Assembly (NCBI GenBank): GCA_964386835.1
Contig: CAYLUL010000001.1
Coordinates: 1-44,532 of the forward strand
Source: an uncultured Methanospirillum sp.
Lineage (GTDB): Archaea > Halobacteriota > Methanomicrobia > Methanomicrobiales > Methanospirillaceae
Length of the DNA stretch: 44,532 bases
Direction: 5' to 3'
The notes under the pieces were generated by a model. It was not told the DNA's origin and did no database searches. It worked only from the letters and a program-made list of their open reading frames with translations. Below, in pieces: positions 1 to 9,443 of the stretch (the stretch's first letter is position 1; every line of letters starts with the position of its first letter). The position numbers were made by a program, and so were the translations under genes.

Positions 1-1
1 A

Positions 2-262
2 ATCAATGACTTCGAGGTCGTGGCCTTTCTCGTGGTGCTGCCTGACCAAACCGATATCAGCGTTCAACTTGCCCCCGGGATCCATTTGAACATCCCGCTG
101 CTGTCCGCCGCGATGGATACGGTGACCGAGGCGCGCCTGGCGATTGCCCTGGCGCGCAAGGGGGGCTGCGGGCTGATCTTCTGCTCGCAGTCGGTGGAGT
201 CGCAGGCGGACATGGTGCGCAAGGTCAAGGAGCATAAGGCCGGCTTCGTGCAGTCGGACTCG
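2..262 (+). pseudogene. IMP dehydrogenase-family N-terminal fragment. It enters from the left window edge and homology ends near nt 255-262.
   Basis: The frame of ORF 20..781 reads ...HLNIPLLSAAMDTVTEARLAIALARKGGCGLIF...MVRKVK, the conserved IMPDH/GMP-reductase N-terminal barrel signature (SAAMDTVTE). After KAGFVQ the frame becomes P/G/S-rich text without CBS or catalytic-loop sequence. Neither other plus frame continues the homology: one hits TGA at about nt 310 and the other reads nonsense. Confidence 0.45.
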
Positions 263-348
263 AACCTGGCCCCGCAGGTCCCGCAGAACCGCTTCCCCGG
301 GGTCCTGGGTGAGCCGCACCCTGGGCAGAACTGTCCCTTCGGGCTCAT
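64..348 (-). pseudogene. Zinc-ribbon protein 5' fragment. Only the first ~30 codons (nt 259-348) look genuine.
   Basis: Starts MSPKGQFCPGCGSPRTPGKRFCGTCGARF, a double CxxC zinc ribbon like the two intact zinc-ribbon genes at 6381 and 6738. An SD-like GGAGAGTGG lies upstream. The remainder of the ORF is simply antisense to the IMPDH fragment. Confidence 0.3.
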
Positions 349-483: not shown

Positions 484-3400
484 TTATCCACCCACCTTCG
501 GCTTCGCGAGAGCGAGGCTCTCCCAGCCGTTCGCCATCGCCTCGGTGAACGAGGTGATGTCCCCAAACCCCTCCTTGTCGAGCGCCCGGTTCGCTCGTTG
601 GATCTCGGCCGGGTCCCAGGGATGTTTCGCCGCCTCATGCACGGCGTCAGCGGCCCGTCGGAAGTTGTCCGGCAGGTCGGGGATCTCGTGGTTGTTCGAG
701 TACCCATTCCGGATTGTGTCGAGCATCTTCACCCCCTTCGAGGCCTGGACGAAGGCCTCGGGCGCCCCGAAGTGGTGGTAGGCGTCCCCCACCTTGGTCC
801 GGTACATCTGGGCGATTCCGGGGGGATCGTAGAGCCGGCCGTGCCCTGCCGCGACGCGAGTCACGTTCGACTGCATGGAGGGCTCTACCGAACGAACGAA
901 CGACCCGGTTGCATCATCCCACCGGATATGCCCCTGGTCCTTGAAGTCCATGCAGGCCTCTTCGTGTATCGCGTCCGTCCCGAGCTGCTGCCGCTGCTCC
1001 GCCCACTCCTTTGCCGCAACCGGGTCCTTCCAGTTGGGACATCTCGTCTCCCTCGCGAAGATCTCGTAGGAGGAGTCCTCCCATTTCGAGCGGGGCACCT
1101 CCCTGACGACCCTGGGAGTCCCGTCCGGGTTCCGCTCAATTACCTCCACCACGCGATAGTCGCGGTCGGTGTTCAGTTTTTCACCGGGTTTGGCCCCGGG
1201 AGTCCCGAACTCGGCGACGATGATATCCTTTCCGGCGTACTCAGGGTGAGTTGCCTTCAGGGCCTCGACGAGCTGAGTGTCGTGACGCCCGTAGATCTCC
1301 TGCCGTGTCCGTTCGAACCCGGCTCTCAACGCTGCATCGCCCTCGCGATCGAGCCGGCGCACCTGTTCGGGGTGGCGCATCAGATCGAGCACATCGCCCT
1401 CCAGCACGACCCACTCCCCGCCACCGTCCTTGTGAAGTCCTTTTCGAAGCCGGTTCCAGAGGATTTCAGCTTCGAACTGGCTGAGCGGCTTTGGTGGACC
1501 GCGCTTCCCTGCGGCTCCCCCTCGCGTTGCCTGCACCCATGCCTCGTTGAGAGTCCGGTCACCGCTCGCGTTCAGGAACTCCTGGAAGACCATCGCGAAG
1601 GTGAGGTGCGCCATGTCCCAGGACGACGCCTCGAAGGCCTCGTACCAGCTGCAGACCTTCTCCTTCGGTCCTGGCCGGACCTTGTGGTAGATGAACTTCC
1701 AGATCCAGAGCATCACCAGGATCCGGACACTGGGGTTCCGCGGGTCGAAGTTGACCATGATCAATGTATCGACGCCCGCGACGGCCTGCATCTCGATCCA
1801 CCGGGCCCGGTTCAGTTCGTAGTATTTCCACCAGACAGCGACGAGTTCGTCCTCTCCGGCTTCGTACCGGTCCGCGTAAAAATTGAAGAACTCGACCAGC
1901 TCGTCCTTGAGGAGCGGAACGAACTGCTGGCTCGCGAACGAGGCTGCGAACCCGAGGTTCCGCGTGTAGTACCCGACCACGGCCATGAAGGCGAAGTCGC
2001 CCACCTTCTTCGTCGCCCCGAGCCCGGAAAGAATGGTCGTCTCCCAGGGTTTCCAGGTGAGGTAGTCCTGCTGGTCCTCCCGCCAGATCCGCTGCGCCTC
2101 CTCCCAGATCACCTCACGGAGGATGGCGTAGTCCCTCGCCCCGGCATGCTTCTTCCCGAACGCCGCGAGGTCATGGACGAGGTGGGAGTACTCCGGCCGC
2201 CCCTGGGGAATTACATCCTCGATGAAGACCAGGAGGTGGGTCTGCTCCTCGGAGAGGGTGCCAATCTTTCTTTTTCGCCCGGCGGTGACGATCTCCAAGG
2301 GCACCGCGCACTCCCACGGCCCGGATCGGGCGATGATCCCGGCGGGGTACGTCCCTCCGTCACCGGGGACGAAACGCTTGAACTCGAATCGCCATGCCCC
2401 TTCGAGGCCGGAGTATGAGTCGGGATGCCGCTCGGGTTTCACCAGGTCCCCCAGCGAGAAGAGGATTCGGGCTGGCTCGCTGTCGCTCTCGAGCCGCTCG
2501 AACGCGATCGCCTCTTCCATCCTGGGGTCGTCCTCGACATGGGTCCCGTTCCAGGTCATCACAGAAAACCGGACGAAGGCAACGCGGTGGGGGTCTTTCA
2601 TCGGGAGATCCGCGCGGAGGGGCACGGTTGTCTCGTGGCCCGAGGTCTTCCAATCCCCCTTCTGCCAGGTGTAGATTCCGGCGACATACAGCCCCTCGAA
2701 CGAGACGGTGACCGGGACATCGGGGCCTCTCAGCACGAGGTCGCCCGACGTCGCCACCGGGTGGAGCAGGATCCGCCGCTCCCATGCCCCTGGGCCGATC
2801 GGGGGGTCGACAGGTGCCGCGTCGGAATTGACAGCGACACGAAAGGACGCCCTGTCCCCGACCCATTCCGGTGGGTCGACCTCTACCAGGCCGCGGGCGT
2901 CGTCGTCCGGGATCAGTTCAAAGGTCCACGTTCGTCCAGAGGTCGTCGAGACCGCGAGCGAGACGTCGACGTAGGTGGGTGCGGGCACTCTGCCCTGACG
3001 GTTCTCGGGGTGGGTCAGCAGGAATACCTCCCCGGGAGAGACGTCGAGGGCGGCCGCGTGCCCGAGCGGGATGTGCACCGTGGCGCGTGAGAGTTCGCTC
3101 CCTTCAACGGTCGCCACCACCTCGACCTCGACCGCGTCCGGGAGCCGGGTGTCCGCAGGACCCGTCGCTCGAGCCCGGACCTCGGCGGCGTACCACCACG
3201 GCTCGTCGACTGCGTTCAAGAGGGGGCAGGAGATGTCGAGGTTGTCGACCCGTGCCGCATCGAACCGGATGGTCGCGTTCCGTTCCCGCTCGCCGAGAAT
3301 CTGGCCTGGTTGGGGGTCCAGGCGTGTGTCGATCACGACGCGGCTCTCCGGGTCGAATGGATCGATCGTGCTCCCCCAGCGGGGGTCGGTTGCGGTCACC

Positions 3401-4452
3401 AGCACGACCGACGGCGCCTCCCCGAGGTCCACGGTTACCCGGCTGGAGAACGTCTCCCGGCCCACCCGGGCAGCGACGACCAGTCCGGCCGACTCCCCCG
3501 ACCCACCGCTGACCTGTGTGACCGTGCAGTCCACGCGACCAGTGCCTTCCCTGACGAGGATTTGGAGTCTCCCCGCCGCGTCCGACGCCTCCGTTACCGT
3601 GATAACGGCCTTGGGGACCGGCACCTCCTTGCCGGGTGCCGCCTCCTCGAGAAGGAGGGCGTGAAACACGGCGGGCCGTCCCTGGGAGACGGAGATCCGG
3701 TTCGCCGAGAGACGCAGGACGTAGGTCTTCTTCGGCACGAGGACGAGGGTTGTGCGCTGCTCGACCCTGCGCCCCCCGACCCGGACCGCGACGCCGACGT
3801 CGAACGAATCGTTCCCGGGGGTACCGGGCGCGAGGCCATGCGCCCGGAAGAGGGCGCGCTTGCCGCCACCCTCTGCCGTCTCAGTGACGAGGCCGACCCG
3901 TTCGGTCCTGGACACGACCCTGAACCAGTCCTGCCGTACTAGTCCGGCAATCTCGGCGTCCGTCGGGACGAGGAGGTCCGAAAACGTGAGGTGGGCCATG
4001 AGCGCCGCCATCGGGGTCCCATCGCTCGCGTCGGGGACCGGTTCGGGGGCGAGCTCGAGCGCTGCCGGCGAAAAGTCGGGGGGCCCGATCACCACGACCT
4101 CGGTCATCGGCCCCGGGCCGGCGGGGACGGGGACGCCGATCGTCGGGACAGGCAGGGCGAGCGGGTAGAGGGTCACCGAGAGACGGACCGGCTCCTTGCC
4201 GGCGATCAGGGCCTCGTACTCTCCCAGGGAGAAGTGTCCCTGTAGGGCAATGGTGAAACGGACCGCCTTTCCCGCCTCGATGATCTCCTTCTCCGTGACC
4301 ACCACCCGGTCCATCCAGGGGCACCCGGGCGCCACGACGACCCGGAAATTCGGGTTCAGCGGCACGGGCTCGACGTTCCAGCGAATTCGCGAGCGGATCA
4401 CCACGGGCATGACCGTGCCGCTCCCGGCATCATACATGAATGCGAAGGACAT
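484..4452 (-). CDS. Large (1,322 aa) uncharacterised protein with N-terminal beta-sandwich repeats, a central hydrophobic segment and a C-terminal globular region
   Basis: Longest uninterrupted ORF in the window. The ATG at 4452 is preceded by SD GAAGGTGA with a 5-nt spacer; the track's GTG at 4479 has no SD. There is no signal peptide. Protein-like composition holds throughout. The opposite-strand ORF 469..2418 is R/P/G-rich shadow. Confidence 0.8.
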   Translation of the reverse strand: MSFAFMYDAGSGTVMPVVIRSRIRWNVEPVPLNPNFRVVVAPGCPWMDRVVVTEKEIIEAGKAVRFTIALQGHFSLGEYEALIAGKEPVRLSVTLYPLALPVPTIGVPVPAGPGPMTEVVVIGPPDFSPAALELAPEPVPDASDGTPMAALMAHLTFSDLLVPTDAEIAGLVRQDWFRVVSRTERVGLVTETAEGGGKRALFRAHGLAPGTPGNDSFDVGVAVRVGGRRVEQRTTLVLVPKKTYVLRLSANRISVSQGRPAVFHALLLEEAAPGKEVPVPKAVITVTEASDAAGRLQILVREGTGRVDCTVTQVSGGSGESAGLVVAARVGRETFSSRVTVDLGEAPSVVLVTATDPRWGSTIDPFDPESRVVIDTRLDPQPGQILGERERNATIRFDAARVDNLDISCPLLNAVDEPWWYAAEVRARATGPADTRLPDAVEVEVVATVEGSELSRATVHIPLGHAAALDVSPGEVFLLTHPENRQGRVPAPTYVDVSLAVSTTSGRTWTFELIPDDDARGLVEVDPPEWVGDRASFRVAVNSDAAPVDPPIGPGAWERRILLHPVATSGDLVLRGPDVPVTVSFEGLYVAGIYTWQKGDWKTSGHETTVPLRADLPMKDPHRVAFVRFSVMTWNGTHVEDDPRMEEAIAFERLESDSEPARILFSLGDLVKPERHPDSYSGLEGAWRFEFKRFVPGDGGTYPAGIIARSGPWECAVPLEIVTAGRKRKIGTLSEEQTHLLVFIEDVIPQGRPEYSHLVHDLAAFGKKHAGARDYAILREVIWEEAQRIWREDQQDYLTWKPWETTILSGLGATKKVGDFAFMAVVGYYTRNLGFAASFASQQFVPLLKDELVEFFNFYADRYEAGEDELVAVWWKYYELNRARWIEMQAVAGVDTLIMVNFDPRNPSVRILVMLWIWKFIYHKVRPGPKEKVCSWYEAFEASSWDMAHLTFAMVFQEFLNASGDRTLNEAWVQATRGGAAGKRGPPKPLSQFEAEILWNRLRKGLHKDGGGEWVVLEGDVLDLMRHPEQVRRLDREGDAALRAGFERTRQEIYGRHDTQLVEALKATHPEYAGKDIIVAEFGTPGAKPGEKLNTDRDYRVVEVIERNPDGTPRVVREVPRSKWEDSSYEIFARETRCPNWKDPVAAKEWAEQRQQLGTDAIHEEACMDFKDQGHIRWDDATGSFVRSVEPSMQSNVTRVAAGHGRLYDPPGIAQMYRTKVGDAYHHFGAPEAFVQASKGVKMLDTIRNGYSNNHEIPDLPDNFRRAADAVHEAAKHPWDPAEIQRANRALDKEGFGDITSFTEAMANGWESLALAKPKVGG

Positions 4453-4489
4453 CAATGTCACCTTCCCGAACCCACCCACTGGGCGGACA

Positions 4490-5743
4490 TCAGTAGAACT
4501 CCATCGTGGGTGGCTCTCCGATCTCGACCGTGACTGTGGTCTCGGTCCCCCCTCCTGGGGCCGAGGCGGTCACCTTCAGGGGCACGGTACCGGACTGAGC
4601 GGAGGCCCCGGCGACGATCAAGAGGGAGAGGTGCTGCCGCCCGGTCATGGCAGGCGAGATCCGAAGCCCGCTGCCAGCAGGGGATACAACTGAGATCACA
4701 GCCTCAGGGGCGGGCTCAACCGGGCCGTCACCTTCCTGTTTCCAGGCGGTGATCTCGAGGGGGACCGGCTGGTCCCCGGAGACCCGGACCGTGGCGGTGC
4801 TCAGCTGCAGGATGTACCTGACCCCCTCCTCTTCCTCCTTCTCCCTCTCTTTCTTTTTCTCCTTCTCTTGTACGGGGGAGGTGGGCCTGCGCCGGGAGAC
4901 GGCCAGTGCGCCCCCCGCAATCCCGGCTCCCACCACCGCCAACGCGCCAATGACAACGGTCCAGTCGACGGGCTCCTTCGGTGGAACGGGATCGACCGTC
5001 GCCCCGGAATACCCGTAGAGGTAGGCCGTGATCCCGGTGATCGCGGGCTGGCCAGCGATGTAGCTCGACCCGGCAACCTGGCTCGAGACGACCGTCCGGG
5101 CGGTGCCGCCGACCACGACGACGAGGTGCTGACCTGTCGCCCCCTCAGGCACGGTCCAGGTCACGTCCCGCGTCCTGGGACCGTCGCCCGGTGCGATGGA
5201 GACACCGTCGTCGGCGATGCCCTGCATCTCGAGGTCGTCGAGCTGCGCGAAGGTAAGCGTCCGGATCCCGTCGAGCGACCCGCGGTCATCGACAACGCCG
5301 GCCTGCAGCGCGGTTGTTCCCTCGCTCTGCGCGGAGAACCCGGCCTGCAGCGAGGGGTTCCCTGAGTCCCGATCGGCGATATCGAGCCGGGTCATGATGC
5401 TGGACCCGGGTCTCAGTTCCGACGGAGGCGGGATCCAGGTGTGCGAAAATTCGAGGGTGATAGCCGTCCCAGGGACCGATAGGGACGATACGGCGGTGGA
5501 TCCGCCCGAGGGGATGTATGACCCCACGGCATCCCCGTAGGTGGTCCCGGGTGTATCGAGGACACGGTCAGTGTAGGTCCCCGACAATGTCCACGAACCG
5601 GCAGCGGCCGTGACGGGCAGGACAAAGAGGGTGAGGCCGACCACCCATACCCACAAGAGGCGTCCTGAGAACGTGGATCTCCCTGTCCCAGTATGCGTGT
5701 GATCGGCGGAACCTTGCCCGGCAGGACCGGGGCCGGGAGTCAT
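4490..5743 (-). CDS. Single-pass membrane protein with an N-terminal signal/anchor, extracellular beta-rich domain, TM helix, K/E linker and cytoplasmic beta-sandwich domain
   Basis: N-terminal hydrophobic LLWVWVVGLTLFVLPVTAAAG. Second TM WTVVIGALAVVGAGIAGGALAV followed by RRR, then EKEKKKEREKEEEEG. The start overlaps the upstream stop as ATGA (5740-5743). Confidence 0.65.
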   Translation of the reverse strand: MTPGPGPAGQGSADHTHTGTGRSTFSGRLLWVWVVGLTLFVLPVTAAAGSWTLSGTYTDRVLDTPGTTYGDAVGSYIPSGGSTAVSSLSVPGTAITLEFSHTWIPPPSELRPGSSIMTRLDIADRDSGNPSLQAGFSAQSEGTTALQAGVVDDRGSLDGIRTLTFAQLDDLEMQGIADDGVSIAPGDGPRTRDVTWTVPEGATGQHLVVVVGGTARTVVSSQVAGSSYIAGQPAITGITAYLYGYSGATVDPVPPKEPVDWTVVIGALAVVGAGIAGGALAVSRRRPTSPVQEKEKKKEREKEEEEGVRYILQLSTATVRVSGDQPVPLEITAWKQEGDGPVEPAPEAVISVVSPAGSGLRISPAMTGRQHLSLLIVAGASAQSGTVPLKVTASAPGGGTETTVTVEIGEPPTMEFY

Positions 5744-6381
5744 CCCTTCCTCTTCAGCACCGCACTTGTCGCGTACCGTTCGACGAGGGCGACCGCCTTG
5801 TCGAAGTTCTCCTCCGTGCCGTAGACCACGATCGGACGGAACAGGGTCCGGCGATAGAAGAGGATCGAGCGATCACGCCGGTCAACTGTCACCGAGCGCA
5901 TCTCGTCCCAGCGCATCGACTCCATCTCGCGGCTGATGTTGATCAGGCTTCCCCCCGTGCCAGCGAGGGAGCCGCCGATCGCGGACCCGACCAGGGTCGC
6001 CCGGTTGAGCGCCTTCGACTCCTTCCCGGCGTGATAGCCAACCCCCTCGCTCGTGATCGCAAACTCGCCCATCGGCCCGCCCTTCGAAAAGAACTGGATC
6101 GCCCCCCCGATCACCAGGCCGAGGACGACCAAGAGAAGAAAGATCCCGGCGATCCAGGGCAGAGCAAAGAACGAGCCCATCGCCACCATCAGGAGGGCGA
6201 CGAAGAGGGCCCCGGCACCGAGGGCGATGACGAGTTGCTTGACGACGACGGGACTCGTGACGACCGGCATCCGGGCCGACCAGGCAAGAGATCCGGGCTC
6301 GGGGTCCACGCGTGCCTCGCAGGACGGGCAGGACTCCGCCCCGGGAGGGAGGGTTGAACCGCAATCGGGACAGAAGGCCAT
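5740..6381 (-). CDS. Zinc-ribbon membrane protein with a C-terminal PH-like/unknown cytoplasmic domain (213 aa)
   Basis: MAFCPDCGSTLPPGAESCPSCEA zinc ribbon, then two hydrophobic helices (LVIALGAGALFVALLMVAMG; IAGIFLLLVVLGLVIGGAI), then a soluble tail. The ATG at 6381 was verified. The 169 codons upstream in track ORF 5740..6888 are R/S/P-rich and were rejected. Confidence 0.7.
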   Translation of the reverse strand: MAFCPDCGSTLPPGAESCPSCEARVDPEPGSLAWSARMPVVTSPVVVKQLVIALGAGALFVALLMVAMGSFFALPWIAGIFLLLVVLGLVIGGAIQFFSKGGPMGEFAITSEGVGYHAGKESKALNRATLVGSAIGGSLAGTGGSLINISREMESMRWDEMRSVTVDRRDRSILFYRRTLFRPIVVYGTEENFDKAVALVERYATSAVLKRKG

Positions 6382-6415: not shown

Positions 6416-6427
6416 AAATAATAAAAG
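6416..6427 (-). promoter_or_regulatory. Candidate TATA box for the 6381 operon
   Basis: The minus strand reads CTTTTATTATTT, 35-46 nt upstream of ATG 6381. It is the only AT-rich block in an otherwise GC-rich spacer. Confidence 0.35.
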
Positions 6428-6737: not shown

Positions 6738-7115
6738 ATGTTCTGTCCCGACTGCGGAGCAGAGAACCCCGGGAGCAACCTCTTCTGTGAGCAGTGCGGG
6801 GCCTCCCTCGCACCTGACGGGGTGTCGTCCCCGCCCCCGGTGACATCGACGCCGCCATCACCGCCCCCGCCAGCACCGGTTCGAACACCGACCACCGTGT
6901 CCCCGCCCGACGTGGGGTGGTTCGGCACCGCTGGTATCATTGTCGCGCTCATCTCCACGGTCGTCATCCCGATCATCTTCGGCCCGATCGCAATCGTGCT
7001 TGGGTTCATCGGCCACTCGCGGGGAGACCCGAGGGGGAAGATAGCGATCGTCCTGGGTGTCGTCTGCATGCTGATCGGCTTCGTCCTCAGTTACATCGTC
7101 CTGTCCGGGTTCTGA
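6738..7115 (+). CDS. Zinc-ribbon protein with a Pro-rich linker and two C-terminal TM helices (DUF4190-like)
   Basis: MFCPDCGAENPGSNLFCEQCGA double CxxC. Linker PPPVTSTPPSPPPPAP. Hydrophobic GIIVALISTVVIPIIFGPIAIVLGFIG and IAIVLGVVCMLIGFVLSYIVL. Confidence 0.7.
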   Translation: MFCPDCGAENPGSNLFCEQCGASLAPDGVSSPPPVTSTPPSPPPPAPVRTPTTVSPPDVGWFGTAGIIVALISTVVIPIIFGPIAIVLGFIGHSRGDPRGKIAIVLGVVCMLIGFVLSYIVLSGF

Positions 7116-7249
7116 CCAGGACTCACGGTCCCCGCCGAACCGGTGGGTCCGTCTCGACGGGGCGATCGCCCATCACGCGCAGAGGAGGGTGACGGAGACA
7201 CTGTTCTGAACGGCACCCTTTACCCACCCGACGGCCAGATCTGTTGAGT

Positions 7250-7720
7250 ATGCGGGTTATCGGGATTGACCCGGGGTACGGCCGGGTGGGTTGGGGCGTG
7301 GTCGAGGGGCGCCGGCACCAGCTCGCCTGCTGCGCCTGGGGTTGCATCGAGACCTCGAAGGAGACGCCGATGCCGGACCGGATCCTCCAGGTCTGGCGGG
7401 CCCTGAACGCGCTCCTCGACGAATGGTCGCCCGACGAGATGGCAATCGAGTGCCTCTACTTCTCGAAGAACGTGACGACCGGGATCCAGGTGGCGGAGGT
7501 CCGCGGGGTGATCCGACTCGCCGCCGCTGAACGGGGAATTCCTACCGCGGAGTTCACACCAAACCAGATCAAACAGGCGGTGACGGGCTCGGGCCGTGCG
7601 GATAAGAAACAGGTCCAGGAGATGGTCCGACGCGTCCTCGCGCTTGAGACCGTGCCCCGCCCGGACGATGCAGCCGACGCTCTGGCCTGCGCCGTCTGCC
7701 ACCACCACTGCCGGCGCTGA
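7250..7720 (+). CDS. ruvC: Crossover junction endodeoxyribonuclease RuvC
   Basis: MRVIGIDPGYGRVGWGVV..., EMAIECLYF, IKQAVTGSGRADKKQVQEMV and PDDAADALACAV are classic RuvC catalytic and structural motifs. The ATG at 7250 is preferred over the TTG at 7244. Confidence 0.93.
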   Translation: MRVIGIDPGYGRVGWGVVEGRRHQLACCAWGCIETSKETPMPDRILQVWRALNALLDEWSPDEMAIECLYFSKNVTTGIQVAEVRGVIRLAAAERGIPTAEFTPNQIKQAVTGSGRADKKQVQEMVRRVLALETVPRPDDAADALACAVCHHHCRR

Positions 7721-7846
7721 GACTGAACTCGGAGGGTAGCCTCATTCGGGCCCATCATGCCCGGGGATCGCTGGGGTTCGACCGGCAATCCTGCCGAAAC
7801 GGAGCTCTTAACCCCCAACCGGCCCCAAATAGAGAGAGAAGGGCTC

Positions 7847-8437
7847 ATGTTCGCATATCTCGAGGGGACGATCGACTCGGTCGACGAGCGGGCAGTCGTC
7901 ATCGACGTGGGCGGGGTCGGCTTCCGGGTGCTGGCGTCGGGACCGGTGCTCGCGAGCCTGCGCCCGGAGCGCGGGCGGGTTCGTATCCACACCCACCTCG
8001 TGGTCCGCGAGGACGGTTGGACCCTCTACGGCTTTCTGGACCCCCGGGACCGCGAGGTCTTCCAGGCCCTGATCGGGGTGACCAAGGTCGGGCCGGCTCT
8101 TGCGCTCAAGGTCCTCTCCGAGGTTCCCGTCGACGAGCTGGTCCGCGCGGTTCAGGGCGAGAACGAAGCGGTGCTGACCCGTGTCCCGGGGATCGGGGCA
8201 AAGTCCGCAAAAAGGCTGATTCTTGAGCTCCGCGACCGGATCGCGGGGATCGGGACCGCCTCCGGCATACAGGTCCCGATCGCCGGCCCCGACGCCGATG
8301 CCACCGCCGCCCTGGTCGCGCTCGGCTTTGGACCCCGCGAGGCCCAGGAGGCGGTTGACTCCACCCGTGCCGAGGCACCGGACGCCGACCTCCAGGCCCT
8401 GATACGGGGGGCGCTCGCCCGCCTCAGGAGGACCTGA
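7847..8437 (+). CDS. ruvA: Holliday junction branch-migration complex subunit RuvA
   Basis: [28 protein letters not shown] (OB domain). HhH region [17 protein letters not shown]...[17 protein letters not shown]-terminal domain [19 protein letters not shown]. Confidence 0.9.
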
Positions 8438-8438
8438 G

Positions 8439-9443
8439 ATGCGGGACGATCGCGAGGTCTCGCCGGCCCTCCACTCCGACGAGCCCGAGGAGACCGCGAT
8501 CCGGCCCATATCACTCGACACGTTCATCGGCCAGCCCGAGGTGCGCGAATCCCTCGCAATCGCGATCGAAGCGGCGAAGCGGCGGGGCGAGCCGATTGAC
8601 CATATCCTCTTCTCCGGGCCGCCGGGGCTCGGAAAAACCACGCTCGCCCACATCATCGCCCGGGAGATGGGGGCCGCGATCCGGACCACCACCGGCCCTG
8701 TCCTCGAAAAGCCCGGTGACCTCGCCGCACTTCTGACCGCGCTCGGAGAAGGCGACGTCCTCTTCATCGACGAGGTCCACCGGGTTTCCCCGGTCGTCGA
8801 GGAGGTGCTCTACTCCGCGATGGAGGACTTCTTCATCGACGTGATGATCGGCGAGGGGCCGAGCGCCCGTTCGATCCCACTCACCCTCGAGAGGTTCACG
8901 CTGATCGGCGCCACCACGAAGATCGGCAACCTGGGAGCCCCGTTCCGCGACCGGTTCGGGATCGTCAGCCGGCTCAATCTCTACGACGAACCCGAGCTGG
9001 TCCGGATCGTGGAGCGGTCCGCCGGGATCATGCGGATTTCGATCACCCCGGAGGGGGCGCTCGAGGTCGCCCGCCGGTCTCGGGGAACGCCCCGGATTGT
9101 GAACCGCCTTCTCCGCCGGGTCCGCGACTATGCCCTGGTCCGGGGCGACGGCACGATCACCCGGGAGTCCGCCGACGAGGCTCTCTCCCTGCTCGGGATC
9201 GACCGGCTCGGCCTCGACGACCTCGACCGCCGAATTCTCTCTGTCATCGTTCGGGAGTTCGACGGAGGGCCGGTTGGGGTTCGGACGATCGCGATTGCAG
9301 TCGGCGAGGAGGTCCGGACGATCGAGGAGGTCTATGAGCCCTACCTGATCCGGATTGGGTTCATTAAACGGACCCCGCAGGGGCGCGAGGCGACCCCGGC
9401 GGCGGCAGCTCACCTGGCCCGTTCGTCAACCGGTCGTGCCTAG
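8439..9443 (+). CDS. ruvB: Holliday junction DNA helicase RuvB (AAA+)
   Basis: Walker [12 protein letters not shown], Walker B VLFIDEVH, sensor [24 protein letters not shown] and the C-terminal winged helix [17 protein letters not shown]. Confidence 0.97.

What the first reader, a model, noticed from the sequence alone, without database searches (positions are those of the whole stretch)
484..6381. Tightly coupled three-gene membrane-associated operon built around a 1,322-aa protein with no recognisable family
Seen in sequence: three minus-strand genes are packed as one unit. The zinc-ribbon/2-TM protein (6381-5740) overlaps the next start as ATGA. The 417-aa single-pass protein (5743-4490) ends 37 nt before an SD-preceded ATG (4452) of the 1,322-aa ORF. 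The giant protein has no signal peptide. It carries several beta-sandwich-like repeats in its N-terminal half. A tryptophan- and hydrophobic-rich central block follows (DFAFMAVVGYYTRNLGFAASFA ... VRILVMLWIWKFIYHK). The last ~330 aa form a globular C-terminal region. The cytoplasmic tail of the 417-aa protein (nt ~4493-4820: YILQLSTATVRVSGDQP...AVISVV...TVTVEIG) visibly resembles an internal repeat of the giant protein (nt ~3420-3729: YVLRLSANRISVSQGRP...AVITVT...RVTVDLG). The receptor-like partner and the giant protein therefore share a homologous module. Inference: the architecture (extracellular domain, TM, cytoplasmic module matching a huge cytosolic partner, plus a Zn-ribbon membrane adaptor) suggests a trans-membrane sensing or effector complex. 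That could be envelope-, conflict- or defence-related. I could not assign any component to a described system.
Basis: partly seen in the sequence, partly recalled or inferred. Interest (0 to 1): 0.72.

Follow-up and report, generated by a model that had tools for sequence, protein, structure and literature searches.

The report
Split giant membrane receptor, zinc-ribbon partners
The three genes are real and belong to an undescribed gene system found in many bacterial phyla and a few methanogens: a giant protein anchored under the membrane, carrying a swappable enzyme-like head of unrecognised fold, that always travels with small zinc-ribbon membrane proteins.

Summary
Three tightly packed minus-strand genes (P1 6381-5740, P2 5743-4490, P3 4452-484) match no Pfam, NCBIfam, PADLOC or PDB family apart from P1's zinc ribbon. 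The cytoplasmic tail of P2 is homologous to P3 residues 241-350 (hhalign 99.5%, E 8e-23).

New here: the family is not methanogen-specific. Exhaustive HMMER finds 206 protein clusters, mostly bacterial. In 38 of 39 bacterial giants one chain carries a hydrophobic N-terminus, an ectodomain, a TM helix, a K/E linker and the P2-type module, followed by the P3-type body. Archaea therefore encode a split version, P2 as anchor and P3 as body.

The only recurrent neighbours are zinc-ribbon proteins (49 of 74 loci; 3.05 vs 0.40 per 10 kb). On the same scaffold the C-terminal head is swapped between at least three unrelated types.

The head in this window has invariant polar residues (HD, TPG, NTDRDxR, E, TD). 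Its AlphaFold model is confident (pLDDT 86) but has no significant Foldseek match.

Best reading: a trans-membrane sensor/effector device with a possibly nucleotidyltransferase-like head. The function is unproven. Defence, toxin and structural readings remain open.

The parts
6738..7115 (+). Divergently transcribed 125-aa protein with an N-terminal zinc ribbon and C-terminal hydrophobic segments. It is a conserved neighbour of P1.
   Evidence: ORF and translation. It has homologues beside P1 homologues in L001 (E 2e-73) and in the distant locus L007 (E 6e-15). Pfam DZR/Zn_Ribbon_1 is recorded on the L001 orthologue.
6416..6427 (-). A/T-rich CTTTTATTATTT element about 40 nt upstream of the P1 start. 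Possible archaeal TATA box (inferred only).
   Evidence: Read directly from the sequence. No test was run. The sigma-70 scan found nothing.
5740..6381 (-). P1, 213 aa. N-terminal zinc ribbon, two TM segments, and a conserved cytoplasmic C-terminal domain (motif GYRAGKESKAINRATL...GGSLAGAGGSLINISRE...W.EMRS).
   Evidence: There are 45 homologues down to 44% identity (alignment A4). Full-length homologues lie beside giants in bacterial loci L063, L027 and L025. A PDB profile search found nothing.
4490..5743 (-). P2, 417 aa. N-terminal hydrophobic segment, ectodomain of about 210 aa, one TM, K/E-rich linker, and a cytoplasmic module.
   Evidence: Only residues ~250-417 are conserved in distant homologues. 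The gene is lost in L012.
4901..4957 (-). P2 transmembrane helix (residues 263-281), followed by SRRRP.
   Evidence: Kyte-Doolittle score 2.22. The same Gly/Ala-rich TM sits 15-90 aa before the module in 38 of 39 bacterial giants.
4493..4843 (-). P2 cytoplasmic module (residues 301-417, starting with the YILQL motif).
   Evidence: BLASTP against P3 gives E 3e-6. hhalign gives 99.5%, E 7.8e-23. BLASTP against the post-TM region of the Lutibacter giant gives E 1e-5.
484..4452 (-). P3, 1,322 aa. Cytoplasmic giant: beta-rich N-terminal region (1-720), helical Trp-rich middle domain (~721-990), and conserved C-terminal head (~995-1322).
3403..3732 (-). P3 module (residues 241-350, YVLRL...), homologous to the P2 tail.
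   Evidence: Alignments of bacterial giants to P3 begin exactly here.
1483..2292 (-). P3 helical middle domain (residues 721-990). Nearly invariant G818-D819..F822, K849 and D895.
   Evidence: The AlphaFold model is all-helical here, with most 10-residue blocks at pLDDT 72-95 and dips to 52-61 at residues ~721-730, 791-810 and 961-970. Conservation. The domain is shared by homologues that carry other C-termini.
487..1470 (-). P3 C-terminal head (residues 995-1322), a mobile domain of unrecognised fold.
   Evidence: 206 clusters. Invariant or near-invariant residues: R1032, H1057-D1058, T1084-P-G, N1094-T-D-R-D-x-R1100, E1118, W1124, F1132, T1159-D1160, E1165, K1220, Q1236, K1239. Most 10-residue blocks are at pLDDT 90-98, with loops at 56-68. 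It is the most conserved part among close relatives, 91-95% identity.
1153..1173 (-). Codons for N-T-D-R-D-Y-R (residues 1094-1100), the invariant acidic motif at the start of a predicted beta-strand.
253..348 (-). First ~32 codons of the downstream multi-zinc-ribbon gene (204-210 aa in relatives). It is cut off by a breakpoint at nt 253.
   Evidence: Similarity to relatives ends at window nt 253.

Best explanation
The locus encodes the archaeal, split form of a widespread giant single-pass membrane protein system.

Shown by the evidence:
- In bacteria one chain of ~1,250-1,600 aa runs as follows: hydrophobic N-terminal segment (read as a signal peptide), small ectodomain, TM helix, K/E linker, module, further beta-rich region, helical domain, enzyme-like head.
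- In this methanogen the first part is P2 and the rest is P3. Each keeps a copy of the module.
- The unit travels with zinc-ribbon proteins, most of them membrane-anchored: P1, the 125-aa protein, and the downstream multi-zinc-ribbon protein.
- The head is swapped for unrelated domains on the same scaffold in relatives.

Inferred:
- P2 anchors P3 under the membrane by module-module pairing.
- The zinc-ribbon proteins dock on the scaffold as co-anchors or relays.
- An event at the envelope switches on the C-terminal head.
- The head is a metal-dependent enzyme acting on nucleotides. The predicted order of elements resembles a Pol-beta/CD-NTase-type nucleotidyltransferase: long helix, strand, Gly-containing loop (TPG), strand starting D-x-D, a conserved Asp about 62 residues later, and a C-terminal helical bundle.

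Whether the output is a signal or a cell-arresting effector activity is not decided.
For: Unit and topology.

P2/P3 module homology.

Bacterial fusion.
- jackhmmer aligns P2 231-414, including the TM helix and linker, inside bacterial giants at ~170-420.
- 38 of 39 bacterial giants have a TM 15-90 aa before the module. None of 9 archaeal giants does.
- The 'KEEEE..YILQL' region matches by BLASTP at E 1e-5.

Conserved operon order. P2-like, then giant, then multi-zinc-ribbon is kept in distant archaeal loci whatever the head type.

Zinc-ribbon association.
- 49 of 74 loci found through the head domain alone have a terminal zinc-ribbon ORF within 3 kb.
- Density is 3.05 per 10 kb near the giant against 0.40 further away (binomial p 2.6e-16).
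- Zinc-ribbon families were the only ones found in more than 3 of 139 neighbour ORFs from 21 loci (29, 16 and 13 ORFs); the next most frequent, Mur-ligase, POR and TPR, occurred in 2 each. The Lutibacter operon is an example.

Head as an enzyme.
- It has invariant charged residues.
- It is the most conserved region among close relatives.
- The model is confident.
- The head is swapped on the same scaffold. Type B is a divergent homologue (hhalign 97%). Types C and D are unrelated.
- Type D gives weak EF/CyaA-cyclase Pfam hits in two members (E 6e-4 and 1.5e-3). That would fit a nucleotide theme.
Against: - No function is demonstrated.
- The nucleotidyltransferase reading rests on motif order and predicted secondary structure only. 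Foldseek gave no significant match. Pol mu, NF90 and CdnE appear only at E 1.7-3.7 with TM-scores of about 0.1. Pfam and PDB profile searches found nothing. The canonical G[GS] motif is replaced by TPG.
- Type C heads carry an E...HxH...SxxD pattern more like a JAB peptidase, which does not fit a nucleotide-signalling theme. Pfam did not confirm it.
- P2 is missing in one close relative, so it is not strictly required. A P2 paralogue downstream might substitute for it.
- The P2 ectodomain shows no special variability among close relatives.
- No interaction was modelled.
Confidence: 0.45

Rival explanations
1. Anti-virus or abortive-infection defence system. The membrane part senses envelope perturbation or genome injection, and the C-terminal head (nucleotide-modifying, peptidase or cyclase) arrests or kills the cell.
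For: - The effector-like C-terminal domain is swapped on a conserved scaffold.
- Distribution is patchy across many bacterial phyla plus a few methanogens, with 35-50% identity between domains of life. That suggests horizontal transfer.
- Some loci (L028, L042) carry two giants in tandem, and one Bradyrhizobium MAG has giants on two contigs (L034, L057).
- The type D locus has an extra small gene overlapping the giant's stop.
Against: - None of the three proteins hits PADLOC.
- Among 139 neighbour ORFs, PADLOC matched only single generic domains.
- Neighbours are housekeeping genes such as Mur ligase, TrkAH and GatB.
- There are no copies on plasmids or phages.
- Synteny looks stable in Bacteroidota.
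Confidence: 0.25
2. Polymorphic-toxin-like exported effector. The giant is delivered out of the cell by the zinc-ribbon membrane proteins, and its variable C-terminus is the toxin.
For: - C-terminal domain swapping.
- Weak similarity of type D heads to the EF/CyaA/ExoY toxin cyclase family.
- An extra downstream gene in the type D locus could be an immunity gene.
Against: - Archaeal P3 has no signal peptide or TM.
- In bacterial giants the stop-transfer TM, followed by basic residues, puts the bulk and the head in the cytoplasm.
- No known trafficking or pre-toxin domains occur. Only TPR and ankyrin repeats co-occur.
- The downstream zinc-ribbon gene stays the same whatever the head type, and types A and C have no head-specific extra gene.
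Confidence: 0.08
3. Non-enzymatic structural scaffold. The system would be a sub-membrane platform that organises membrane proteins, for envelope biogenesis, membrane remodelling or cytoskeleton-like duties, with the zinc ribbons as attachment points.
For: - The giant has a large beta-rich region, and variants carry TPR or ankyrin repeats.
- It has several membrane partners.
- Its neighbourhoods are housekeeping genes.
- A weak, non-significant similarity of the C-terminal helices to ESCRT-III CHMP1B (E 0.24).
Against: - The invariant His/Asp/Glu/Lys/Arg constellation and the strongest purifying selection fall on the head.
- The head is exchanged for other enzyme-like domains.
- Distribution is sporadic rather than universal.
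Confidence: 0.15

Closest known systems
Pol-beta-fold nucleotidyltransferases of the cGAS/DncV/OAS (CD-NTase) type
   Same: The order of predicted elements in the head is alike: long helix, beta-strand, Gly-containing loop, beta-strand beginning with an invariant D-x-D, a conserved Asp about 62 residues later, and a C-terminal helical bundle. The spacing is compared with DncV and OAS from my own knowledge. Pol mu, NF90 DZF and CdnE appear among the weak Foldseek hits.
   Different: There is no significant sequence or structure match (Foldseek E 1.7-3.7, TM-score about 0.1; Pfam and PDB profile searches empty). TPG stands in place of G[GS]. There is an extra invariant HD pair. The head is attached to a giant membrane-tethered scaffold.
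Polymorphic toxin systems
   Same: A conserved N-terminal body carries C-terminal domains exchanged between relatives.
   Different: Topology is cytoplasmic. There are no secretion or trafficking domains and no head-specific immunity gene in types A and C.
Membrane-anchored defence sensors such as Zorya or Kiwa
   Same: The logic is similar: membrane proteins are coupled to a cytoplasmic effector. This comparison rests on my own knowledge of those systems.
   Different: None of the window's three proteins hits a PADLOC model. Among neighbours, PADLOC matched only single generic MotB-like domains. The loci are not in defence islands.
Receptor-type single-pass enzymes (receptor kinases and cyclases)
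   Same: The bacterial giants run from a hydrophobic N-terminus through an ectodomain and a TM helix to a cytoplasmic catalytic-looking domain.
   Different: About 750 residues of beta-rich and helical scaffold lie between the TM helix and the head. No known sensor or output domain is present. Zinc-ribbon membrane partners are obligatory. Archaea split the chain into two genes.
Zinc-ribbon (DZR / Zn_Ribbon_1) membrane proteins, and ArnA-type zinc-ribbon regulators
   Same: P1 and the neighbouring proteins carry the same CxxC...CxxC ribbon. The P1 profile touches the ArnA ribbon weakly (E 0.38).
   Different: The rest of P1 (its C-terminal domain) has no known relative. These ribbons have no established function, so they offer nothing to transfer.

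Membership tests
Any Pfam, NCBIfam or PADLOC family (all three proteins) | A profile hit at or above the curated threshold. | tested here: not met
   Only sub-threshold zinc-ribbon hits for P1. Nothing for P2 or P3. Scanning 13 head domains at E<=10 gave no recurrent family.
Pol-beta-fold nucleotidyltransferase superfamily (head domain) | An hG[GS] motif before a helix or loop that leads into the catalytic strand. | tested here: inconclusive
   F-[RG]-T-P-G (1082-1086) lies 10 residues before the acidic motif. It is not the canonical GS/GG.
Pol-beta-fold nucleotidyltransferase superfamily (head domain) | A [DE]x[DE] pair on a beta-strand plus a third carboxylate downstream. | tested here: inconclusive
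   D1096-R-D1098 is invariant at the start of a predicted strand. E1118 is 99% conserved and D1160 is 95% conserved. The pattern is compatible, but the geometry was not inspected because no model coordinates were available.
Pol-beta-fold nucleotidyltransferase superfamily (head domain) | Significant structural similarity to a known member. | tested here: not met
   The best nucleotidyltransferase-fold hits (NF90, Pol mu, CdnE) have E 1.7-3.7 and probability <=0.05. The search used a two-domain model, so an isolated-domain search is still needed.
Polymorphic toxin systems | An N-terminal secretion or trafficking domain and extracellular delivery. | tested here: not met
   P3 has no signal peptide. 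In bacterial giants the TM places the C-terminus inside the cell. Only TPR and ankyrin repeats co-occur.
Polymorphic toxin systems | A variable C-terminal domain with a cognate immunity gene immediately downstream. | tested here: inconclusive
   C-terminal variability is present. The downstream gene is the same zinc-ribbon protein for types A and C. Only type D has an extra gene.
Known anti-phage defence systems | A match to a defence-system model, or residence in a defence island. | tested here: not met
   Neighbours are housekeeping genes.
Alpha-2-macroglobulin / complement-like proteins (Ig-type domains plus a helical thioester domain) | A CxEQ thioester motif and significant similarity to a thioester domain. 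| tested here: not met
   None of P3's seven Cys residues lies in a CxEQ context (sequence). C3b, C3d and (alpha/alpha)6-barrel hits appear only at E 0.4-2.8.

The most novel reading that the evidence does not exclude
This is an undescribed trans-membrane machine shared by Bacteria and Archaea. In it the very common but functionally blank zinc-ribbon membrane proteins are the working partners of a giant receptor. The receptor's head is a new enzyme fold, or a very divergent nucleotidyltransferase, that converts an envelope event into a nucleotide-based signal or a cell-arresting activity. The archaeal split (P2 plus P3) would show how the receptor is assembled.
Probability: 0.3. Interest if true: 0.85.

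Novelty: categorically new. Interest (0 to 1): 0.72.

Why it matters
Zinc-ribbon membrane proteins are among the most numerous unannotated proteins of archaea and many bacteria. This system gives them a conserved partner, and so a handle for experiments.

The head domain forms 206 clusters at 50% identity and has invariant catalytic-looking residues. Its AlphaFold model is confident yet has no structural neighbour in the PDB or in viral predicted structures. It is therefore a candidate new enzyme family.

The bacterial fused form and the archaeal split form give a natural test of which parts interact. Cultured isolates carry the system: Lutibacter maritimus, Maribellus luteus, Algoriphagus taiwanensis, Petrimonas sulfuriphila and Blastochloris sulfoviridis. 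Function is therefore directly testable.

If the rival readings hold instead, it would be a new type of membrane-coupled defence or effector system.

Tried and rejected
- Family scans: Pfam, NCBIfam and PADLOC on all three proteins found only sub-threshold zinc-ribbon hits.
- PDB sequence and profile searches found nothing significant. They covered P3, the 721-1322 alignment, the head alone, the full-length giant alignment and the P1 family.
- Single-sequence AlphaFold of residues 721-1322 was unusable (pLDDT 40). With a 37-sequence alignment it reached pLDDT 86.
- Foldseek against PDB and BFVD found no hit below E 0.2. The scattered (alpha/alpha)6-barrel and nucleotidyltransferase hits are not significant, and I treat them only as leads.
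- tblastn of the head against plasmids and phages found no match.
- Source names are all 'hypothetical', or are taken from repeat domains.
- A second word-index search with the head profile returned only 5 proteins and no Pfam context.
- Literature searches for such a system, and for DUF7575, DUF7577 and DUF8367, found nothing relevant. One paper I wanted was not held.
- Alpha-2-macroglobulin-like reading: rejected. There is no thioester motif and no signal.
- ESCRT-III-like reading of the C-terminal helices: not supported (E 0.24).
- JAB identity of type C heads and EF-cyclase identity of type D heads could not be confirmed.
- The idea that the central Trp-rich block is a TM segment is rejected for this protein. 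The equivalent stretch does reach TM-like hydrophobicity in a few homologues.
- Promoter/terminator and tandem-repeat scans were uninformative.
Full report
**1. The observation**

- P1 (6381-5740, 213 aa) ends in GGATGA, and that ATG opens P2 (5743-4490, 417 aa).
- P2's stop lies 37 nt before the ATG at 4452 of P3 (4452-484, 1,322 aa). That ATG is preceded by GGAAGGTGA.
- The orthologue in L012 starts with GTG at the same position.

A Kyte-Doolittle scan gives the topology.
- P1: peaks at 38-56 (borderline, 1.59) and 77-95 after its zinc ribbon, read as two TM segments.
- P2: an N-terminal hydrophobic segment (29-47) and one TM (263-281), followed by SRRRP and a K/E-rich linker.
- P3: no TM-strength window.

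Pfam, NCBIfam and PADLOC give only sub-threshold zinc-ribbon hits for P1. P3 has no relative among PDB sequences.

**2. The shared module**

The P2 tail aligns with P3 244-349 at BLASTP E 3e-6. With family alignments, P3 241-350 against the P2-tail family scores hhalign probability 99.5%, E 7.8e-23 over 100 columns. The other N-terminal windows of P3 resemble each other only weakly (best 41%). 'Several beta-sandwich repeats' therefore remains plausible but is not shown.

**3. Relatives and conservation of the unit**

- The word-index search found only six close P3 homologues (84-100% identity), one of them named Methanospirillum sp..
- Their loci all keep P2 directly upstream of P3, and the five complete ones keep P1-P2-P3. 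A 204-aa multi-zinc-ribbon gene follows, and in the five complete loci a 341-aa P2 paralogue on the other strand.
- P1 has 45 homologues down to 44% identity.
- Loci of three distant P1 homologues (L007, L009, L011) also hold P3 homologues: 845 aa in L007, 723 plus 734 aa in L009, and 1,524 aa in L011.
- Those loci also hold P2-like proteins, in which only the TM and module are conserved, and multi-zinc-ribbon proteins.
- In two of the three (L007, L011) the P2-like gene lies directly upstream of the giant.
- The window's divergent 125-aa zinc-ribbon gene (6738-7115) has a homologue directly after the P1 homologue in L007. It belongs to the unit.
- One close relative, L012, has lost P2. Only a 24-codon remnant lies between P1 and P3.

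**4. P3 is modular and the family is mostly bacterial**

An exhaustive HMMER search with residues 721-1322 found 206 clusters at 50% identity. Mapping the hits shows three parts:
- an N-terminal region, 1-720;
- a helical middle domain, ~721-990;
- a head, ~995-1322.

The head also occurs on its own, at the N-terminus of other large proteins, and inside a 3,222-aa protein.

A scan of one genome per GTDB species with the head alignment returned 76 loci.
- Most are bacterial: Bacteroidota including cultured Lutibacter, Maribellus, Petrimonas and Algoriphagus; Planctomycetota; Verrucomicrobiota; Acidobacteriota; Alphaproteobacteria including Blastochloris; Actinobacteria; Chloroflexi; Firmicutes.
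- Three are Methanomicrobiales.
- The closest (96% in the head) is a Methanoregulaceae MAG.

**5. Bacterial giants fuse P2 and P3**

- Iterative searches with P2 align its residues ~231-414 (TM, linker and module) inside bacterial giants at about residues 170-420.
- 38 of 39 such giants have a hydrophobic TM-like segment 15-90 aa before the module, and most also have a hydrophobic N-terminus. None of nine archaeal giants does.
- The Lutibacter giant reads '...RKILKK...KEEEEEAHYILQL...', matching P2's '...KEEEEGVRYILQL...' (BLASTP E 1e-5).

The archaeal P2 plus P3 pair is therefore a split form, with a duplicated module, of a single-pass giant. By the Rosetta-stone argument the two act together.

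**6. Conserved partners**

- In Lutibacter maritimus the giant is followed by three proteins with an N-terminal zinc ribbon and 1-4 TM segments, and by one protein with two TMs and a C-terminal ribbon.
- Across the 74 loci found through the head alone, 49 have a terminal zinc-ribbon ORF within 3 kb. Density is 3.05 per 10 kb near the giant and 0.40 further away (binomial p 2.6e-16). The loci are phylogenetically related, so the p-value is indicative only.
- Among 139 neighbour ORFs from 21 diverse loci, the only Pfam families found more than three times are Zn_Ribbon_1 (29 ORFs), Zn_ribbon_3 (16) and DZR (13). Mur-ligase, POR and TPR families appear twice each, and the rest are housekeeping singletons.
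- PADLOC gives only singletons.
- Full-length P1 homologues accompany giants in Anaerolineae, Smithella and Eubacteriales loci.
- A further family has a conserved 'LAWWDR' stretch and C-terminal zinc ribbons. It follows the giant directly in Methanolinea, Algoriphagus and Anaerolineae.

**7. The head**

Seventy-eight head sequences share these residues (P3 numbering): R1032, H1057-D1058, F-x-T-P-G (1082-1086), N-T-D-R-D-x-R (1094-1100), E1118, W1124, S1128, F1132, T1159-D1160, E1165-A1166, D1169, D1172-Q1173, L1207-x-D-P, K1220, Q1236, K1239, R1248 and Y1251. The window's copy keeps all the invariant ones.

Among close relatives the head is the most conserved region (91-95.5% identity). The two modules are the least conserved (75-81%), and the P2 ectodomain is not unusually variable (87%).

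AlphaFold with a 37-sequence alignment gives mean pLDDT 86.3, with most head blocks at 90-98 and a few loops at 56-68. The predicted order is: long helix 1040-1068, strand 1077-1081, TPG loop, strand 1097-1107 starting at the DRD motif, strand 1113-1118 ending at E1118, two helices, a short strand before T1159-D1160, two more strands, then five helices.

Foldseek finds nothing below E 0.3 in the PDB or below E 0.2 in BFVD. Profile searches of PDB sequences and Pfam scans of 13 heads at E<=10 are empty. There are no copies on plasmids or phages.

From my knowledge of Pol-beta-fold enzymes, the order 'helix, strand, Gly loop, strand with DxD, third Asp about 60 residues later, helical bundle' is that of cGAS/DncV/OAS-type nucleotidyltransferases. 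NF90, Pol mu and CdnE do appear among the weak hits (E 1.7-3.7). This is a lead, not a finding. I give it about even odds.

**8. Head swapping**

Homologues that share residues 1-990 carry other C-termini.
- Type B is a divergent homologue of our head (hhalign 97%, E 9e-11).
- Type C (three proteins) has an E...HxH...SxxD pattern reminiscent of JAB/MPN peptidases. Pfam does not confirm it.
- Type D (three proteins) gives weak hits to Pfam Anthrax_toxA, which I recall (not checked here) to be the EF/CyaA/ExoY cyclase family, in two members (E 6e-4 and 1.5e-3, below the cut-off) and has a GDYDV motif.
- Types C and D are unrelated to type A.
- The type C and type D loci keep the order P2-like, giant, multi-zinc-ribbon. 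Type D has an extra DUF8367 gene overlapping the giant's stop.
- In 39 proteins of variant architecture, only TPR (6 proteins) and ankyrin (6 proteins) repeats accompany the head. No secretion or signalling domains occur.

**9. Interpretation**

Shown:
- a conserved multi-gene unit;
- the P2/P3 homology and the bacterial fusion;
- cytoplasmic placement of the bulk, by hydrophobicity and the positive-inside rule;
- association with zinc-ribbon membrane proteins;
- a strongly constrained, exchangeable head.

Inferred:
- P2 tethers P3 by module pairing;
- the ribbons dock on the scaffold;
- an envelope-side event controls the head;
- the head acts on nucleotides.

The exchangeable head and the patchy distribution fit a conflict or defence role. 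The housekeeping neighbourhoods, the absence from mobile elements and the lack of PADLOC signal fit a resident signalling or envelope function. A secreted-toxin role is unlikely from the topology. A purely structural role is unlikely given the catalytic-looking head.

**10. Novelty**

No component beyond the generic zinc ribbon matches a described family, structure or system in any library available here. Literature searches found no description. I rate it as categorically new. Two caveats apply: arCOG/COG and AlphaFold DB could not be consulted, and the function is unknown.

Noticed in passing
window 1-252 (and 253-348): Similarity to all relatives stops at nt 253. Nt 20-~250 encode, on the + strand, an IMPDH-like N-terminus (…IHLNIPLLSAAMDTVTE…). 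The downstream multi-zinc-ribbon gene is therefore cut after about 32 codons. This is either a real rearrangement or a chimeric contig end.
   Followed up: partly
window 7244-9443 (+): Bacterial-type RuvC, RuvA and RuvB genes lie next to the unit in a genome whose relatives are labelled Methanoregulaceae or Methanospirillum. The same arrangement is in L001 and L002 (Pfam RuvC, RuvA_N, RuvB_N). This is unusual for an archaeon, as far as I recall, and suggests a bacterial acquisition.
   Followed up: no
L012 1700-1810: The closest species-representative relative lacks P2. After the conserved ATGA overlap only a 24-codon ORF remains before P3. A 342-aa P2 paralogue is still present downstream on the other strand.
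   Followed up: yes
L089 6903-7679: In the locus whose giant carries the type D head (weakly EF/CyaA-cyclase-like), an extra 258-aa DUF8367 gene overlaps the giant's stop codon, ahead of the usual multi-zinc-ribbon gene. It could be a head-specific regulator or immunity-like protein.
   Followed up: no
L017 8940-10252; L075 8955-10001; L063 8266-9672: An unannotated family of about 330 aa has a conserved '...LAWWDR...' stretch and one to three C-terminal zinc ribbons. It lies immediately downstream of the giant in a methanogen and in bacteria of two phyla. It is a further candidate core component.
   Followed up: partly
L014 813-10523; L016 675-10523 (and P0054): Planctomycetota encode proteins of about 3,230-3,280 aa with the head domain embedded internally, 48-51% identical to the window's head. 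P0054, a 3,222-aa metagenomic protein of the same layout (taxon not given), carries CarboxypepD_reg, CARDB and Big_7 domains. This is a very different context for the same head.
   Followed up: no
L007 6300-7061; L011 660-1496: Distant archaeal versions of the cluster include an FHA plus double-zinc-ribbon protein and a PrsW-protease plus zinc-ribbon protein. These hint at phospho-dependent or proteolytic control in some lineages.
   Followed up: no
L028 4149-13883; L042 179-8915: Some bacteria carry two giant paralogues in tandem. In L028 a zinc-ribbon/2-TM gene lies between them.
   Followed up: no
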